From Chiloscyllium plagiosum (lineage: Eukaryota), in contig NC_057718.1 of NCBI RefSeq assembly GCF_004010195.1, positions 56,368,592-56,408,327 of the forward strand: a DNA stretch of 39,736 nt, read 5' to 3'. Positions within the stretch are counted from its first letter, which is position 1. Every line of letters starts with the position of its first letter. The notes below the pieces were generated by a model. That model was not told the DNA's origin. It made no database searches and saw only the letters and a program-made list of their open reading frames with translations. Position numbers and translations under genes: made by a program. Below are positions 5,172-34,500 of this stretch, piece by piece.

Positions 5172-5456
5172 CTATGATGGAAAACTGTTGAACTTTTTTT
5201 TCAATCGAGTATCTTGCTTCTTCAGTTTATTTCTTTGAAATTGAGCAATAGTAGTGTAATCCATAGCAGCAGGCCAAAAGATTTTACCCACTGGCCAAGC
5301 TTAAATTAAGATTATGGAGTGTCAGCTGTTAACAGCATAAAAACTAATAACCTTGCATGTCTCAAATCACAAGAGGAATGTTCTGTGAGCAGAAATGTGG
5401 GTATATGATGTACTACTTGTAGAGTAGCAGAGGGAATTAGAATATTGAATATTATT

Positions 5457-6139
5457 AGAACGAACAGTTAGTGTGAGTAGTACAGATGTAGTAGAGGTGA
5501 ATTTAAATAATTGAAGAAAAGAAGATAGAAAAATATGCTAACAAGGAAAAAACTACTGTTGAAAGAGGGTTGTATGGAGCAATATCTTGGACCACTTGGG
5601 TGAACTGAATTGAATTTGGCCATTTAAAATGTTTATAAAATATTGTCTTGTCAATGTATTTAAAGGCTGCAATGTTTTAGTTAGGTGCTTAGTTGTTCTT
5701 TGAAAGATACTTACATGAAATATGACTGACTTTTAAGTAGCAAGTACTCTTGTGAGTAGGTGAAAGAGGTATTTAATAAAAATTAAGATATTTGCCTCAA
5801 TGGCTTTTAAACATAACCTAATCAGAACGAACAGTTAGTGTGAGTAGTACAGATGCAGTAGAGGTGAATTTAAATAATTGAAGAAAAGAAGATAGAAAAA
5901 TATGCTAACAAGGAAAAAACTACTGTTGAAAGAGGGTTATAAACATTTAAAATGTTTATAAAATATTATCTTGTCAATGTACTTAAAGGCTGCAATGTTT
6001 TAGTTAGGTGCTTAGTTGTTCTTTGAAAGATACATGAAATATGACTGACTTTTAAGTAGCAAGTACTCTTGTGAGTAGGTGAAAGAGGCATTTAATAAAA
6101 ATTAAGATATTTGCCTCAATGGCTTTTAAACATAACCTA
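5457..6139 (+). repeat. Two-copy tandem duplication (5457-5820 and 5824-6139)
   Basis: Both copies start AGAACGAACAGTTAGTGTGAG and end AAACATAACCTA; nearly identical, second copy about 48 nt shorter. Confidence 0.95.
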
Positions 6140-8572: not shown

Positions 8573-8944
8573 TGAGAGGTTTTTGATAGTTTAGAAGAAT
8601 AGGGATGTGATGGAAAATGCTAGCATACAAAACAGAACATTTTCATATTTTTCCGGTTGTAATTTAGGTTGTTAGAAATCTTATACTGTTCCAAAGTCAC
8701 AGGCATTACTCTTGACTGACATCCAAGTGTGCATTTCAGAAGAGGACCCTGACATATATTTTAAAAACTTTTGACATTGACTTTTTTTTAAAAGTCGAGC
8801 ACTGTAAGGGGAAAAAATCTTTCGCCATATTCATTGTTAATGGATATGATAAGCTATAACAATTGTTTGCAAAAGGATATGAATAAAATCAGAATTAGAG
8901 TTAAAAAACACAATTAAGAAACAAAGTGCAGTAATTTCTTTGAG

Positions 8945-9306
8945 GCAAATGTGAGGGCTGCAGATGCTGGAAATCAGAGTCTAGATTAGAGTGGTGCTGG
9001 AAAAGCACAGCAGGTCAGGCAGCATCCGAGGAGCAGGAAAATTGACATTTCAGGGAAAAGTCCTTCATCAGGACTGACGGCCGGGCTTTTGCCGAAAACG
9101 TCGATTTTTCCTACTCCTCGGATGCTGTATGACCTGCTGTGCTTTTCCAGCATCATTCTAATCGAGACGGAGCAGGAAAATTGACATTTCAGGGAAAAGC
9201 CCTTCATCAGGACTGACGGCGGGCTTTTGCCGAAAACGTCGATTTTTCCTACTCCTCGGATGCTGTATGACCTGCTGTGCTTTTCCAGCATCATTCTAAT
9301 CGAGAC
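8945..9306 (-). mobile_element. PLE-derived fold-back element, family A, with internal 139-bp tandem duplication
   Basis: 34-nt tail (8945-8978), arm 8979-9072, inverted arm to 9168; 9030-9168 repeated at 9169-9306; flanked by AGTAATTTCTTTGAG at 8930-8944 and 9307-9321. Confidence 0.88.
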
Positions 9307-9493
9307 AGTAATTTCTTTGAGGTAAAAACAATGACTGCAGATGCTGGAAACCAGATTCTGGATCAGTGGTGCTGGAAGAGCACAGCAATTCAGGCAGCAG
9401 CCGACGAGCAGCAAAATCGACGTTTCGAGCAAAAGCCCTTCATCAGGAATAAAGGCAGAGAGCCTGAAGCGTGGAGAGATAAGCTAGAGGAGG

Positions 9494-10440
9494 GACAGAA
9501 CTGGCTAAAGACAGAGGGTGGTGGTGGAGGGTTCTTTTTCAGACTGGAGGCCTGTGACCAGTGGAGTGCCAAAAGGATCGGTGCTGCGTCCACTACTTTT
9601 CATCATTTATATAAATGATTTGAATGTGAGTATAAGAGGTATAGTTATTAGGTTTTGCAGATGACACCAAAATTGGAAGTGTCGTGGACAGCGAAGAAGG
9701 TTACCTTGGATTATAACAGGATCTTGATCAGATGGGTCAATGGGCTGAGAAGTGGCAGATGGAGTTTAATTCCGATAAATGTGAGGTGCTGCATTTTGGG
9801 AAAGCAAATCTTAGCAGGACTTATACACTTGATAGTAAGGTTCTAAGAAATGTTGCTGAACAAAGAGACTTTGGAGTGCAGGGTCATAGCTCCTTGAAAG
9901 TGGAGTCATAGGTAGATAGGATAGTGAAGAAGGCGTTTGGTATGCTTTCCTTCTTCGGTTAGAGTATTGAGTACAGGTGTTGGAGGTTATGTTGCAGCTG
10001 TACAGGACATTGGTTAGACTACTGTTGGAATATTGCGTGCAATTCTGGTTGTGAAACTTGAAAGAGTTCAGAAAAGATTTACAAGGATGTTGCCAGGGTT
10101 GGAGGATTTGAGCTATAGGGAGAGGCTGAACAGGCTGGGGCTGTTTTCCCTGGAGAGGGCATAGGTTTAGGGTGAGATGGGAAAGATATAAAAGAGACCT
10201 TAGGAGCAACTTTTTCACGCAGAGGGTGGTACCTGTATGGAATGAGCTGCCAGAGGATGTGGTGGAGGCTGGTACAATTGCAACATTTAAAAGGCACTTG
10301 GATGGGTATATGAATAGGAAGGGTTTGGAGGGATATGGGTTGGGTGCTGGCAGGTGGGACTCGATGTGTTGGGATATCTGGTCGGCATGGTTGGGTTGGA
10401 CTGAAGGCCCTGTTTCCGTGCTGTACATCTCTATGACTCT
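9494..10440 (+). mobile_element. CR1 LINE 3' fragment (RT C-terminal half and 3' tail) with internal deletions
   Basis: [13 protein letters not shown] and NFFTQRVV..WNELP motifs; ends CTCTATGACTCT. Confidence 0.93.
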
Positions 10441-10660
10441 AAATCATCCCCAACCAGCAAATATTGAGTGTTTGTTCAAGCTGTAAAAGTCTCAGCTATC
10501 AATAGATATCTAGAAATGTTAGTTGGAGCAAGTACTGACTGCAGATTACAGTCCTCGAGTGGTCAAGTGAAAGCGATTGCATTGCCACAAATTAAAGTTT
10601 GATGGCATAAAGGCAGCAAATGCAGCTTATCTCTCCACGCTTCAGGCTCTCTGCCTTTAT

Positions 10661-10692
10661 TCCTGATGAAGGGCTTTTGCCCGAAACGTCGA
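10661..10692 (+). ncRNA. Minimal type I hammerhead ribozyme motif (family A, best-preserved copy)
   Basis: TC-CTGATGA-A-GGGC-TTTT-GCCC-GAAA-C-GTC-GA; palindromic ACGT for stem III; predicted cleavage after C10690; stem I very short. Confidence 0.72.
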
Positions 10693-11065
10693 TTTTGCTG
10701 CTCGTCGGCTGCTGCCTGAATTGCTGTGCTCTTCCAGCACCACTGATCCAGAGTAATTTCTTTGAGCAGAGTACCTTTCCCTAAACATTACATCACAATA
10801 CAAAATGTGCAGGAAATGCTTTTTTAAAATCAGTGTTTTACAACTCATGATTACTAAATCTGAAAACAGAAAAAATAAAAACCATGTCATGTGTACAAGT
10901 ATTAGCATACAATGTCTGCAATGACAGGGCTTCCCAAATTGTGCGCAATATCCTCCACACAAAAATGGGTTTTGGATTGTGATTCAGAGGCACAAAGGAT
11001 CTTGAAATGATAGCAGAGGTGTCCCTGTAAATCAATTTTTGTCTATTGGTGGCCATGAAGACTCT

Positions 11066-12659: not shown

Positions 12660-13845
12660 TCCAAACTGGCTTACACATTGAAGGCAAAGGGTGATGGTAG
12701 AACATTGTTTTTGTACTTGGAAGTCTGTGACCAGTGGTGTCCACAGGGATTGGTGTGGGATCCATATTGTTTGATTTGTACATTAACAATCTGGATGTGA
12801 ATTTAGGGGGTTTAATTAGTAAGTCTGCAAATGACACAAAAAGAGGGGGTGTTGCTGATAGTGAGGAGAATGGTCTCAGGCTACAGTGTGAAATTGATCA
12901 GCTGGTAAATTAGGTAGAACAATGGCAGATGAAATTTAACTAGGAGAAAGTGAGGACTGCAGATGCTGGGGAACAGAGCTTAAAAATGTGTTGCTGGAAA
13001 AGCGCAGCAGGTCAGGCAGCATCAAAGGAGAAGGAGAATCAACGTTTCAGGCATAAGTTTCCTGAAGAAGGGCTTATGCCCGAAACATCGATTCTCCTCT
13101 GATGCTGCCTGACCTGCTGCGCTTTTCCAGCAACACACTTTTAAGCTCAGATGAAATTTAATCCCAATAAATGTGAGGGGATGCATTTTGGAAAGTTTAA
13201 GAAGGGAAGGATATACAAAATATGATAGGTTTCTAGGAAGTACTGAGGAATAAAGGGACCTTGGTGTTAAAATCCATTAATCCCTGAAAGTACAGTTGAC
13301 ATGGTGGTGAAGAAGGCATATGGGATGTTTGCCTTCACAGCAAGCGTGAAGAATATAGGACCAAGAAAGCCTTGTTACAACTTTATAAAGCATTCCACAG
13401 ATGAAATACAGTGTGCAGTTCTGGATACCACACTATCAGAAGAACATTGAAGACAGTACTGAGGAGATTCACCAGGATATTGCCTGGGGTGAAAAGTCTT
13501 AGTTATAAGGAGAGACTGGATGGGCTGGATTTGCTTTTCATGAAGCAGAGGATGTTGAGGAGGAATTTGACTGACATTTCCAAAATTATAAGAGTAGACA
13601 GTGAGAATCTAACCACAGATGGGCTTAAGTTTATGATGAGGAGTAAGTGGCTTCGAGGAAATTTGAGAAAAAAAACTTTCCACCCAGAGAGAGGTAGAGG
13701 TATGAAACATGCTGCCTGAGAGGGTGGAGGAGGCAGGTATTGTTACAAAATCTAAGAAGAATCTGGATGCATATTGAAAATGCCAGCAGCATAGTGGACT
13801 ATGGACCAAGTGCAGGTAAATGGGATTAGTGTAGTTTGATGTTTG
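12660..13845 (+). mobile_element. Degraded CR1 LINE 3' half, interrupted by a PLE fold-back element
   Basis: PQG-region, SKSANDTK (FADD-like) and RRFTRILPG..LSYKERL motifs; CR1-type 3' UTR. Confidence 0.88.
12940..13147 (-). mobile_element. PLE-derived fold-back element, family A
   Basis: 14-bp TSD CAGATGAAATTTAA (12926-12939, 13148-13161); 36-nt tail; inverted arms; + strand core CTGAAGA(13062)-AGGGCTTATGCCC-GAAA-CATC. Confidence 0.9.
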
Positions 13846-13943: not shown

Positions 13944-14690
13944 GAGTCAAAGAGTTATAGATTGTCCTGTACGGAAAAAAACTCTTTGGTCCATCTACCA
14001 ATATCCTTTATTAATTTAGTGTCAGTTGCCAGCATTTTGTCCCTAATTCTTTTAACCCTTTCCTATTCATGTACTCAGCAAGATGCCTTTTAAATGTTGT
14101 AATTGTACTAGTCTCTACCACTTCCTCTGGCAGTTCTTTCCATACCCGTACCACCCTCTGTGTGAAAACGTTGCCGCTGAGGTCATAGAGAGGTACAGCA
14201 CGGAAACAGACCCTTCGGTCCAACTCGCCCATGCCGACCAGATTTCCCAACCCAATCTAGTCGCACCTGCCACCACCCAGCCCTTATCCCTCCAAACCCT
14301 TCCTGTTCACATACCCATCCAGGTGTCTTTTAAATGTTGCAATTGTACTAGCCTCCACCATTTCCTCTGGCAGCTCTTTCCATACACTACCATCCTCTGC
14401 GTGAAAAAGTTGCCCCTTAGGTCTCTTTTATATCTTCCCCATCTCACCTGAAACCAATGTCCTCTAGTTCTGGACTCCCCCACCTCAAGGAAGAGACTTT
14501 GTCTATTTATCCTATCCATGCCCCTCATGATTTTATAAACCTCTATAAGGTCACCCCTCAGCCTCCGACGCTCCAGCGAAAGCAGGCCCAGCCTATTCAA
14601 CCTCTCCCTGTAGCTCAAATGCTCCAACCTTGGCAACATCCTTGTAAATCTTTTCTGAACCCTTTCAAGTTTCACAACATCCTTCCCCAT
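13944..14690 (-). mobile_element. Two stacked CR1 3' ends (about 13944-14175 and 14181-14690)
   Basis: ORF 14307-14708 reads KDVVKLERVQKRFTRMLP...RRRLRGDLIEVYKIM; FTQRVVRVWKELPEEVV; same family as 9494-10440. Confidence 0.92.
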
Positions 14691-17450: not shown

Positions 17451-18386
17451 AACCTACTCATATCTTGTTTCAGCCTTACCCCATACACCTTGATCCCTTT
17501 AGCCCTGAGAACAATATCTATCTCCTTCTTACAAACATTTAATATTTTGGTCTCAACTGCTTTCTGTGGCAGAGGACTCCACAAGGCTTACCACACCCTG
17601 GGTAAAGAAGTTTCTCTTCACCAGAGTCCTAAATGGCTTACCTCATATCCTTAGACCATGATCCCTGGTTCTGGACTCTCCAGTCATCAGGAACATCCTT
17701 CTTGCATTTACCCTGCCTAAACCCTGTTAGAATTTTATATGAGATCGCCCCACCCTCTTCATATGTTAGTCCTGCTATTCCAGGAATCAGACTGGTAAAC
17801 TTTTGATGTACCCTTTCCGTAGCTAGACTATTCTTCCTCAGGTGAGGAGACTAAAACTGAACACAATACTCCAGATGTGCTCTCACCAAGGCTTTATTAC
17901 AATTGTAATAAGACATCCCTGCATTCTCTTGCTATGAAGACCAACATTACATTTCTCTTCTTCACCACCTGCTACAACCTATATGCTTACCCTAAGCAAC
18001 AGGTGTACAAGGACATCCAGGTCACATTGCAACTTCCCCTTTTCTAATCTATCATCATTCAGATACTTTTTTTCTACCAAAGTGGGTATCCTCACATTTA
18101 TCCACATTTTCCTTCATCTGCCTTATATTTTCCCACTCACAGCTTGTCGAAATCACATTAAAGCTTCTCTGCATTCTCCTCACCATTCACCCTCCCACGC
18201 AGCTTTGTATCACCTGCAAACTTAAAGCTATTACATTTAATTCCCTCATCTAAATCATTAAACATACTGCGACTAGCTGGGATCTAAGCATTGATCCCTG
18301 TGGTTTGCTACTCGTCACTAACTGCCACTCAGAAAATTACCTGTTTATTCCGACTCTTTGTTCTGTCTGCTGGCCAGTTCTCTATC

Positions 18387-18516
18387 ATTCCTGATGAGGA
18401 GCTTATGCTTGAAACATTGACTTTCTTGCTCTCAGATGCTGCCTGATCGGCTGTGCTTTTCCAGCACCACACATTTTGACTCTGATCTCCAGCATCTGCA
18501 GTCCTCACTTTCTCCT
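18387..18516 (+). mobile_element. PLE family A single-arm element with hammerhead core
   Basis: 11-bp TSD AGTTCTCTATC (18376-18386, 18517-18527); CTGATGA(18391)-GGAGCTTATGCTT-GAAA-CATT. Confidence 0.88.
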
Positions 18517-19069
18517 AGTTCTCTATCCTTGGTAGTGCACAACGCCAAACTCATACTCTTTAATTTTACATGCGAAACCTTATCAAAAGCTTGGCGCCAT
18601 CTTCTTCATAGCTTCCACTGCAGTACCTCTATGGCCACACATCATTCCTGGTCAACAAAGCAGTCAAACCTGCCCTATCCCTACCACCAGACTTTGTGAA
18701 AAGAGAGTTTCTTCTGATAATTTTTTTAAAAATTTCACTATTTGTTTAAATAAAAATTTACATTTTATAGATCATTCTCGAGTTGTAGTAAGTTACTGAA
18801 TGATGTTCACAATGCTTTGCCTCCTGTTGGAATTATTGCAGGCGGATTGGGAGTAATTTGTTAAATAAGGGAATTTCATAGAAGGTATATAAATACAATT
18901 GCACAACAACTTGATAAAGTCCCTTAAGAGACTCATAATAGGCAAAATATACATTAACCTGGTTTTCAAAGAAAGAAAATTGTTGCTTCTGAAAGAGCAT
19001 GGTTGAGTCTATAGTACAGGAGCACTTTTGTAGGTTATATACACAGAACTGCACAAGAGGTAAACTTGC

Positions 19070-32830: not shown

Positions 32831-33150
32831 CTACACAGTGACACTTTTATGTCAGGAAAGAGAAAGAATACTTTCCAAAAAGAAGGATGTATGCCAGTAA
32901 TGACTTGTTTGGAAAATTATTTTCAAGAGTTTGATTTGAGAGAATGTAACTTAATTCATGGCTCAAACTACACACACACCAAAAAAACTGTTTTTTTTTG
33001 TTAAGCAGAACTTCTTCATTATGGAATCTCACAGGGACCATTTGGAATGTAACAACAACTTGCTATTATCAGTATTTTTAATGCGATGGAATGTTTTTAG
33101 GGATTTCACAGTGGTGTTAAAAAACAAAAACTGACACCAATTCACTACAA

Positions 33151-33450
33151 GATTAGAGTGGTGCTTGAAAAGCACAGCAGGTCAGGCAGCATCTGAGGAG
33201 CAGGAATGTCGATGTTTTGGAATTGGGGTAAGGTGGGGGGAGGGGAAATGAGCAAACTGGTGAAGTCCACATTGATGCCCTGGGGTTGAAGTGTTCCGAG
33301 GTGGAAGATGAGGCGTTCTTCCTCCAGGTGTCAGCTGGTGAGAGAGTGGCGATGGAGGAGGCGCAGGACCTGCATGTCCTTGGCAGAGTGGGAGGGGGAG
33401 TTGAAATGTTTGGCCACAGGGCGGTGGGGTTGATTGGTGAGTGACCTGGA
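33151..33450 (-). mobile_element. PLE fragment: GIY-YIG endonuclease C-terminal remnant joined to the family A terminus
   Basis: A minus frame not in the ORF track reads HRPVAKHFNSPSHSAKDMQVL...*HLEEERLIFHLGTLQPQGINVDF; 33151-33218 matches the family A arm with the hammerhead core deleted. Confidence 0.82.
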
Positions 33451-33479
33451 GACATTTTGGGGCAGATGAATTGGTTTTA

Positions 33480-34500
33480 AGAAAGCATTAGGATAAAAAG
33501 AGGAAGAGACGCTTAAGGTGAAGGAATTCCATTGTTAGAGGCATTGTGAAGGGATGGCTACAAATTATGGAAATGTTAAAACCAGCGATGCTCAGACCAA
33601 AATTGAAGGGGCACAAATATCTTGGAGGGGGTTAAAGAGATAGGAAGTAGCAAGGTCATCGAAAGATTTACAAACATGGTTCAGAAATTTAACTCTGGGG
33701 CATTGCTTAACCTAAAGCAATTAAGTAAACAGGTGCAGGAATAATGGGTGAAAGGCCTTTTGTGCAAATCAGGATATGGACAGAATTTTGGATGAGCTTA
33801 CACTCATGGAAGTTGAGAATCCAGCCAGGGCTGCATTGGAATAGTCCAGAGATAACAAGGCACTAAGGAGAATTTTAGCAACAGGTGAACTGAAACAGGG
33901 ATGGAAATGGGCAATGTTAGGGAGATGGAAGTAGATGGCCTTGGTGAAAGCACAGATTTATGGTTCGAAGCTCATCATGGGGTTAAATATAATAAACAAG
34001 GATTGCAAAAAAATGTCGAGTTACCAGTAGAAAGTGGAGTTAACAGCTAGGGAACAGACTGCCCTGTGTAGAATGTCTGAGAGAAAATTCCTGTTCATCC
34101 AGTGGCAGATGTTATACAAACAATTTTTACAACTTAGAAACAACACAGGGATCAAGGGATGTGGTGATCCAATAGAGATAGGAATTGTCAATATACTTGG
34201 GGAACCGGACTTGTTTTTGGATGATGTTAAAATTAAAGAATGGGTCAAGGCCAATTTCGTCCGTCATACTGCAGAACAGCACGTGAATGTGAAATAAGAG
34301 GGACCCAAGGATAGACCTGTGGGGGAGCCATAGATAACTGTATGGGAACAGAAAGAGAAGTATAGCAAGCAATTTTCACACTGCAACTGAATTGGTAAAA
34401 TTGGAACCAGGTAAGCATAAGTTTACTTAACTGGGTTTCAAAGGAGAAGAGTGTTATGGTCACCTCTGTGCAAAGCTGATGGCAGGTTGGGGAGAATGGA
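33480..34500 (-). mobile_element. Degraded L2-like LINE RT fragment
   Basis: PHRSILGSLLF (degenerate PQGSILGPLLF) near 34290-34325 and L2-like downstream sequence; interrupted by other DNA. Confidence 0.55.

What the first reader, a model, noticed from the sequence alone, without database searches (positions are those of the whole stretch)
9322..10766. Cargo-carrying PLE: 129-bp inverted ribozyme arms enclose a degraded CR1 plus about 180 bp of non-PLE DNA
Seen: the arms (9357-9485, 10624-10752) differ at one position and a 15-bp TSD bounds the whole unit. The interior is a CR1 3' fragment with several internal deletions, followed by 10441-10623, which resembles neither PLE nor CR1; I see no TSD around the CR1. 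Inference: the interior looks older than the arms, so it may have been captured from another locus (CR1 plus its flank) by template switching during PLE integration. That would be a PLE-mediated sequence-shuffling route.
Basis: partly seen in the sequence, partly recalled or inferred. Interest (0 to 1): 0.72.

Follow-up and report, generated by a model that had tools for sequence, protein, structure and literature searches.

The report
Foreign DNA inside a Penelope insertion
A young jumping-gene insertion in a shark-like genome carries, between its two mirror-image ends, about 1.1 kb of DNA whose tail end matches another, older place in the genome; this kind of capture is already described for these elements, and here the source can be partly traced.

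Summary
Observation confirmed; capture well supported but not fully proved. The unit is target(15 nt) - 35-nt tail - reversed hammerhead arm - 1,129-nt interior - forward arm - target. In 4 of 4 public runs laid (three organisms) the interior's last ~200 nt (CR1 tail plus unique flank) lie on contigs that run on into non-PLE sequence after 10628: a donor locus without the arm. The match is exact in organism A (0 differences in 209-210 nt) and overlaps arm 2 by 5 nt, a microhomology. Organisms B and C hold the donor-type flank but lack this arm at the orthologous target; A holds the arm-target junction. The PLE family continues differently before 10624, so the flank is not PLE, and a later nested CR1 is very unlikely. 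Best model: both nicked strands primed PLE cDNA, one cDNA end annealed to the donor and copied 1.13 kb before joining the other. Not seen: a record across either inner junction, or the donor's upstream 925 nt, so misassembly (about 12%) and a later repair patch (about 15%) remain. Capture between pLTRs is published (rotifer), and the cargo is dead repeat DNA. New member of a known kind; interest 0.4.

The parts
8930..8944 (+). First copy of the 15-nt AT-rich target sequence
   Evidence: 3 exact copies in the window
8945..9306 (.). PLE1: neighbouring hairpin PLE of another subfamily (left arm 84.4% identical to PLE2's), with a 139/138-nt tandem repeat 9030-9168/9169-9306 that may be an assembly artefact
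9307..9321 (+). Left target-site copy of PLE2 (also right copy of PLE1)
9322..9356 (-). 35-nt one-sided 'tail' of PLE2
   Evidence: absent from arm 2; matches the 30-40-bp tail described in PMC8557442 and PMC11167929
9357..9494 (-). Arm 1: reversed, 5'-truncated pLTR end; minimal hammerhead core at 9446-9419
   Evidence: inner end fixed by CR1 alignment starting at 9495 and family continuation
9495..10441 (+). Captured part 1: decayed CR1-like LINE 3' fragment (RT remnant to 3' tail), three deletions, frameshifts and stops; junction with arm 1 shows no microhomology against family consensus
   Evidence: Pfam RVT_1 17.2 bits, below the 29.6 cut-off
10442..10623 (+). Captured part 2: low-copy 3' flank of the donor CR1
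   Evidence: contigs in 4 of 4 runs carry it at depth 11-31.6 and continue without PLE after 10628
10624..10628 (+). 5-nt microhomology (AGCTT) shared by donor and arm 2
   Evidence: donor-type contigs of all four runs match to 10628; arm 2 begins at 10624
10624..10751 (+). Arm 2: forward, 5'-truncated pLTR end without tail; minimal hammerhead core at 10663-10690
   Evidence: junction to the target present in runs X1 and X15
10752..10766 (+). Right target-site copy of PLE2
   Evidence: orthologous contigs of organisms B and C align from 10752 onward

Best explanation
One recent integration of a Penelope/Poseidon-type element at a staggered 15-nt cut. Both free 3' ends primed cDNA from the element's RNA: the left end at the outer start (giving tail + arm 1), the right end at the inner start (arm 2). 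Both cDNAs stopped after 130-170 nt, within 9 nt of each other. Being the same sequence, they could not anneal to each other. The arm-2 cDNA end paired by 5 nt with a distant donor (3' flank of an old CR1 copy), was extended leftward for about 1.13 kb through the flank and the CR1, and was then joined bluntly to arm 1. Shown: anatomy, donor for the last ~200 nt, the 5-nt overlap, absence of this arm at the site in B and C. Inferred: dual priming, direction of copying, timing, and that the upstream 925 nt come from the same donor. The polymerase is undecided: I lean about 55:45 to the element's RT jumping to an unspliced CR1-sense read-through RNA over a repair polymerase copying DNA.
For: Donor-type contigs in 4 of 4 runs end their match at the same base, 10628 (X1: 209 nt, 0 differences, 141 run on; X15: 210 nt, 0, 142; X5: 5 substitutions + 8 gap letters, 500; X6: 6 substitutions, 413). 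A 5-nt overlap by chance is about 0.1-0.5%. Arm 2-target-flank is present with 0 differences in X1 and X15 (23 and 25 nt into the arm); in X5 and X6 the flank contig aligns only from 10752, with 27 unlike letters before: the insertion is younger than the A/B/C splits, while the donor flank is shared by all three. Both arms carry C10709/G9400, where about 97% of family depth in A reads otherwise, and arm 1 holds 9 nt of PLE beyond arm 2's break, so both came from one intact source subfamily. Poseidon protein cuts and extends both strands and has two adjacent RT starts that explain the tail (PMC11167929). Depth of the flank contig over the right-flank contig is 1.25 and 1.41 in A against 1.19 and 0.84 in B and C; two copies predict 1.56: weak support only.
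Against: No listed record bridges flank-to-arm 2 (10628/10629) or arm 1-to-CR1 (9494/9495); the tables were cut (673,135 pieces, 1,428 joints and 5,148 loose ends not shown), and in X1 and X15 the donor-type contig passes 10628 unbroken. The word share of X1 (0.73) is almost wholly explained by repeat baseline plus the two unique contigs, leaving 0.4-2.4%, so the CR1's private words are largely missing from these contigs and its deletions are unverified in the donor. Depth ratios fall short of 1.56 and overlap control noise. The window is a scaffold with a 501-N gap and two allele-like tandem duplications. The donor's position is unknown; no genome is held.
Confidence: 0.6

Rival explanations
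1. Later repair patch: PLE2 first integrated as a near-perfect head-to-head palindrome like PLE1; its centre broke and host repair (SDSA or microhomology-primed copying) filled it from the donor.
For: Same end product; microhomology and filler are the signature of repair-mediated duplication (PMC2671141 passages). Arms differ at 1 of 129 while the flank differs from the donor at 0 of 209, which does not separate the two times.
Against: Needs two events at one young site. The donor is not within the 9.3 kb left or 29 kb right held in the window, and 1.13 kb exceeds the 619-bp maximum of proximal repair duplications in PMC2671141, though distant ones there reach 3,424 bp.
Confidence: 0.15
2. Assembly artefact: PLE2 is real but the interior was joined in from the donor locus during assembly or gap filling.
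For: No listed record bridges either inner junction; donor-type contigs pass 10628 unbroken in both A runs; allele-like tandem duplications at 5454-6139 and 9030-9306 and an N gap; PMC8557442 warns that these structures trouble short-read assembly.
Against: Assemblers join through long shared words, not a 5-nt overlap or a blunt junction (established practice, recalled). Contig builders drop short low-depth links into very high-depth repeats (recalled; the tool says contigs show presence, not absence). Both A depth ratios exceed both controls.
Confidence: 0.12
3. 5' transduction: a single-arm PLE had first inserted at the donor (5' junction by microhomology); a read-through RNA of CR1 + flank + arm was then mobilised in trans, as proposed for the rotifer cases.
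For: Interior and arm 2 are in the same sense; microhomology at PLE 5' junctions and mobilisation in trans by pLTRs are reported in PMC3846280.
Against: The donor has no arm at 10629 in 4 of 4 runs; arm 1 holds 9 nt beyond arm 2's break, so such an RNA could not template it, yet both arms share the minor variant at 10709/9400.
Confidence: 0.08
4. 10442-10623 is PLE-derived and the CR1 is a later nested insertion.
For: CR1 copies are abundant, and lack of a TSD alone does not exclude it.
Against: Family contigs continue differently before 10624; the flank is at single-locus depth (11-31.6) against 10^5-10^7 in the repeats; CR1 tail plus flank is found in organism B, which lacks this arm at the target; the CR1 is far more decayed than the arms.
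Confidence: 0.02

Closest known systems
Host DNA captured between Penelope pLTRs in Adineta vaga (Arkhipova et al. 2013, PMC3846280; passages read)
   Same: Unrelated sequence between pLTRs, whole unit framed by a TSD, empty site seen in a relative or allele; non-coding captures mentioned; 0.9-1.5-kb host spacers in Pen1.
   Different: There the NRPS gene lies between two direct pLTRs and is read as mobilisation in trans; here the cargo sits at the head-to-head joint of two inverted, truncated arms, a donor is traced to the base with a 5-nt microhomology, and the host is a shark-like vertebrate.
Inverted, 5'-truncated PLE insertions with a one-sided 30-40-bp tail (Craig et al. 2021, PMC8557442, passages; Frangieh et al. 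2024, PMC11167929, parts 1-2 of 4)
   Same: Head-to-head inverted arms, 35-nt tail on one side, hammerhead in the arm, AT-rich target containing ATT.
   Different: Those passages describe no foreign insert at the inversion joint; this unit has no ORF at all.
L1 insertions with templated genomic DNA or a second RNA at the joint of twin-primed ends (PMC11702581, passages)
   Same: Two RT-extended ends at one site, discrete 12-18-bp TSD, microhomology, template switch before end joining.
   Different: Different enzyme class; L1 twin priming gives two non-overlapping parts of one RNA, here both arms copy the same part; their genomic templates were near the site.
Repair-mediated duplications (Pace et al. 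2009, PMC2671141, passages)
   Same: A copy of low-copy DNA interrupting a repeat, with 2-9-nt microhomology and no poly(A).
   Different: Mostly within 5 kb and at most 619 bp; here 1.13 kb, donor not in the window, and placed exactly at a PLE inversion joint.

Membership tests
Endonuclease-positive Penelope-like element insertion | Inverted 5'-truncated pLTR copies, head to head | tested here: met
   129-nt arms, 1 mismatch, hammerhead cores on opposite strands pointing outward
Endonuclease-positive Penelope-like element insertion | One-sided 30-40-bp tail | tested here: met
   35 nt at 9322-9356 only
Endonuclease-positive Penelope-like element insertion | Minimal hammerhead motif in the pLTR (core, one unpaired base, helix II, palindromic 15.2-16.2; PMC4209133) | tested here: met
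   Pattern and 4-bp helix II at 10663-10690 (+) and 9446-9419 (-); but Rfam gave 0 hits at gathering score and monomer folds were not significant, z -1.5, -1.6, -0.5; cleavage not testable
Endonuclease-positive Penelope-like element insertion | Target-site duplication with empty orthologous site | tested here: met
   15-nt copies; arm absent before 10752 in organisms B and C; the letters standing there were not shown
Endonuclease-positive Penelope-like element insertion | RT plus GIY-YIG ORF in the family (clade Poseidon, Neptune or other) | tested here: inconclusive
   No ORF in this unit; two short frames next to a related arm at 33202-33480 look like a PLE endonuclease end (recalled) but gave 0 Pfam hits. 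Clade name not tested.
CR1 non-LTR retrotransposon | RT domain in the 3' part of ORF2 | tested here: inconclusive
   RVT_1 17.2 and 13.6 bits in 2 of 5 interior pieces, below cut-off 29.6
CR1 non-LTR retrotransposon | High-copy 5'-truncated LINE ending in a short tandem tail; clade by RT tree or library | not tested
PLE-captured host DNA (PMC3846280 kind) | Cargo unrelated to the PLE, with a donor elsewhere lacking pLTRs | tested here: met
   Met for the last ~200 of 1,129 nt; upstream part not verifiable
PLE-captured host DNA (PMC3846280 kind) | Cargo moved in the same event as the pLTRs (not added later) | not testable with these tools
   Needs population long reads or an integration assay
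Non-autonomous cargo-carrying PLE family (multi-copy unit) | The arm-cargo-arm unit is present in many copies | tested here: not met
   Flank depth is 1.25 and 1.41 times the unique right flank in A: one or two copies
Proximal repair-mediated duplication (PMC2671141) | Donor within 5 kb, length up to about 620 bp | tested here: not met
   No donor in 9.3 kb left or 29 kb right; length 1,129 nt

The most novel reading that the evidence does not exclude
In these sharks, dual-primed PLE integrations are routinely sealed by the element's own RT jumping through short microhomology onto unrelated, distant templates, so the inverted-arm joint is a regular slot for kilobase cargo, including exons. This locus would be one dated, donor-traced case of a genome-wide shuffling route, and the junctions would show how PLE inverted structures are resolved. 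Unchecked notes on at least five other loci of this genome point the same way.
Probability: 0.35. Interest if true: 0.65.

Novelty: new member of a known kind. Interest (0 to 1): 0.4.

Why it matters
How PLEs form and close their inverted-repeat insertions is an open question (PMC8557442, PMC11167929). A young insertion with a tail on one arm, a base-level donor junction and empty sites in two relatives is a useful footprint: it predicts microhomology-primed copying from the no-tail cDNA end and can be tested with purified Poseidon protein. As a single event the cargo is dead repeat DNA about 6.1 kb downstream of an MTIF2-like gene and has no evident function. It would matter more as part of a genome-wide count of such captures.

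Tried and rejected
No whole genome is held, so the proposed genome BLAST could not be run. Blastn in the window found no donor; the CR1 copies at 2-115 and 14182-14678 are 92.5% and 89.7% identical and lack the deletions, so they are not the donor. Rfam: 0 hits in the window. Monomer folds of the hammerhead region were not better than shuffles. Pfam found nothing for 5 of 9 pieces, sub-threshold RVT_1 for 3 and one irrelevant weak hit. Earlier-finding look-ups near the locus, by the flank's sequence, by eight words and in relatives returned nothing. Absence of a listed junction contig was not taken as evidence either way. An extra low-depth record near 10578 in X1 could not be interpreted. Reading the CR1 deletions as spliced introns was rejected: 8 and 22 nt are too short and the 107-nt piece does not begin with GT in the in-window copy. 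A simple inversion of local DNA was rejected because the target copies are direct. Only 4 of 22 listed runs could be laid; the raw-read runs were left out because about 2,000 of 52,000 million letters would be read. The stretch laid (9460-11060) held one arm only, so the left flank, PLE1 and the tail were not tested against runs. Prokaryote, viral and metagenome collections were not searched. Searches listed no paper whose title or abstract start describes PLE capture in sharks (0 papers); most subscription journals are outside the library, so this is not proof of absence. No supplementary files were read; those of PMC3846280 may list the non-coding captures.

Full report
Setting. The window is vertebrate-like DNA with exons of an MTIF2-like gene on the minus strand (frames at about 16.9-30.9 kb; gene name recalled from the translations). 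The finding lies about 6.1 kb beyond the last such frame. The window is a scaffold with one 501-N gap. No whole genome is held.

Observation. The arms 9357-9485 and 10624-10752 are 129 nt with one mismatch. The 15-nt target occurs three times in the window, at 8930, 9307 and 10752, so the order is target - PLE1 (8945-9306) - target - PLE2 (9322-10751) - target. PLE1 is a hairpin of another subfamily (84.4% to PLE2's arm). PLE2's left arm has a 35-nt outer tail that the right arm lacks and runs 9 nt further inward, to 9494. Each arm holds a minimal hammerhead core with a 4-bp helix II, at 9446-9419 (-) and 10663-10690 (+), fitting the description in PMC4209133 (passages); Rfam gave no hit and monomer folds were not significant. 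Head-to-head arms with a one-sided 30-40-bp tail are the standard PLE insertion form (PMC8557442, passages). The interior is 1,129 nt: a decayed LINE 3' fragment at 9495-10441 with deletions of 8, 22 and 107 nt, and 182 nt of low-copy DNA. The CR1 label is recalled; Pfam gave only sub-threshold RVT_1 matches. No TSD frames the LINE (longest direct repeat 5 nt) and the 182 nt have no second copy in the window.

Test on public runs. One search listed 22 runs; I laid 4 (X1 and X15 of organism A, X5 of B, X6 of C; all contigs) on 9460-11060. First, in 4 of 4 runs one contig covers the low-copy flank and its match ends at 10628, after which it runs on for 141, 142, 500 and 413 letters unlike arm 2. 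In A the match is exact (0 differences in 209 and 210 nt, including 21-22 nt of LINE tail); in B and C it has 5 and 6 substitutions (2.5-3.1%). This is a donor locus without the arm, older than the split of these organisms. B's contig includes 16 nt of the LINE tail, so the tail/flank junction is old too; C's includes only 6 nt and says little on that point. Second, arm 2 starts at 10624, so donor and arm overlap by 5 nt; chance is about 0.1-0.5%. Third, PLE family contigs carry a different sequence before 10624 (64 records in X1), so the flank is not PLE. Fourth, the right flank is joined to arm 2 in X1 and X15 (23 and 25 nt into the arm, 0 differences; short of the tool's 31-letter bridging rule) but in X5 and X6 it aligns only from 10752 with 27 unlike letters before: this arm is absent there. 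Fifth, both arms share a base at 10709/9400 that about 97% of family depth in A lacks.

What the runs did not show. No listed record bridges 10628/10629 or 9494/9495; the tables were heavily cut, and in both A runs the donor-type contig passes 10628 unbroken. Contig builders remove short low-depth links into very deep repeats (recalled), which would give this picture, but it is not proof. The depth ratio of flank contig to right-flank contig is 1.25 and 1.41 in A, 1.19 and 0.84 in B and C, against 1.56 expected for two copies: a weak hint of two copies, and clear evidence against a multi-copy family. A word budget, taking the small runs' share of 0.40-0.42 as repeat baseline (my assumption), leaves 0.4-2.4% of words unexplained in X1, so the LINE's private words are mostly missing from these contigs. 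The upstream 925 nt of the interior are therefore not tied to the donor by data. The window also has two allele-like tandem duplications (98.1% and 99.3%), which shows that its assembly is not clean.

Mechanism. Poseidon protein from the green anole cuts and extends both strands, prefers ATT, and starts RT at two adjacent sites whose spacing is the tail (PMC11167929, parts 1-2 of 4 read). That explains two outward-pointing arms, one with tail, and a discrete TSD. The two cDNA ends are identical, not complementary, so the gap must be closed by end joining, as in PLE1, or by a bridge. Here the arm-2 end overlaps the donor by 5 nt while the arm-1 junction is blunt against family consensus, so I infer copying began at arm 2, ran 1.13 kb leftward and was joined to arm 1 (confidence 0.6). 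The cargo is in the sense expected if RT jumped to a CR1-sense read-through RNA, but that is a coin toss a priori; there is no poly(A) and no intron to test. I lean 55:45 to an RT jump over a repair polymerase on DNA. Rivals: a later repair patch at the centre of a palindrome (0.15), misassembly (0.12), 5' transduction from an arm-bearing donor allele (0.08; against it, the donor has no arm in 4 of 4 runs and arm 1 extends past arm 2's break), nested CR1 in PLE sequence (0.02).

Comparison. PMC3846280 (passages) reports an intron-containing gene and several non-coding sequences captured between pLTRs and framed by TSDs in a rotifer; PMC6431247 (passages) reviews this as PLE transduction. L1 gives templated genomic inserts and two-RNA inserts at twin-primed sites (PMC11702581, passages); PMC13526784 (passages) shows L1 cDNA ends recombining and added little. 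Repair-mediated duplications carry microhomology but are mostly short and near (PMC2671141, passages). So the unit works like these and meets the structural tests for a PLE insertion with captured DNA; clade and timing are untested. My searches (listings only, except the papers named) showed no report of this in sharks. Earlier notes of this scan (unchecked AI notes, not support) describe captures at PLE joints at several other loci of this genome, which suggests recurrence and lowers the rarity of this one case.

Verdict. Real feature, capture likely, donor partly traced, cargo without evident function. New member of a known kind; interest 0.4. The bolder reading, a regular RT-driven shuffling route at PLE inversion joints, has probability about 0.35 and would merit 0.65.

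Noticed in passing
window 8930-10766: Two PLE subfamilies (arms 84.4% alike, different tails) sit at the same 15-nt target with the same duplication edges: either strong site preference of the endonuclease or two alleles set in tandem by the assembler. In B and C a contig ends 27 letters before the target, as it would at a repeat such as PLE1, but the letters were not shown.
   Followed up: partly
window 5454-6139 and 9030-9306: Tandem near-copies (98.1% with 44- and 4-nt indels; 99.3%) that look like two alleles written one after the other; possible assembly artefacts.
   Followed up: partly
table 5, joints 10438-10442 to 10658-10662: Many contigs from other loci join the LINE 3' tail directly to a PLE arm at the upstream edge of the hammerhead (up to 24 contigs per row), in all four runs: single-arm PLEs seem often to sit at LINE tails.
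   Followed up: no
window 12926-13161: Hairpin PLE inserted in an old CR1-like copy with a 14-nt TSD (12926, 13148).
   Followed up: partly
window 18376-18527: Single-arm PLE with an 11-nt TSD, beginning just before the hammerhead core.
   Followed up: partly
window 33150-33480: Related PLE arm next to a minus-strand frame that looks like the end of a PLE endonuclease (recalled; no Pfam hit).
   Followed up: partly
window 7626-7598 and 26155-26127 (both -): Hammerhead-like cores of a second repeat family with a different helix II.
   Followed up: no
window 14054-14423: 131-nt internal repeat (84%) at the 3' end of a minus-strand CR1-like copy.
   Followed up: no
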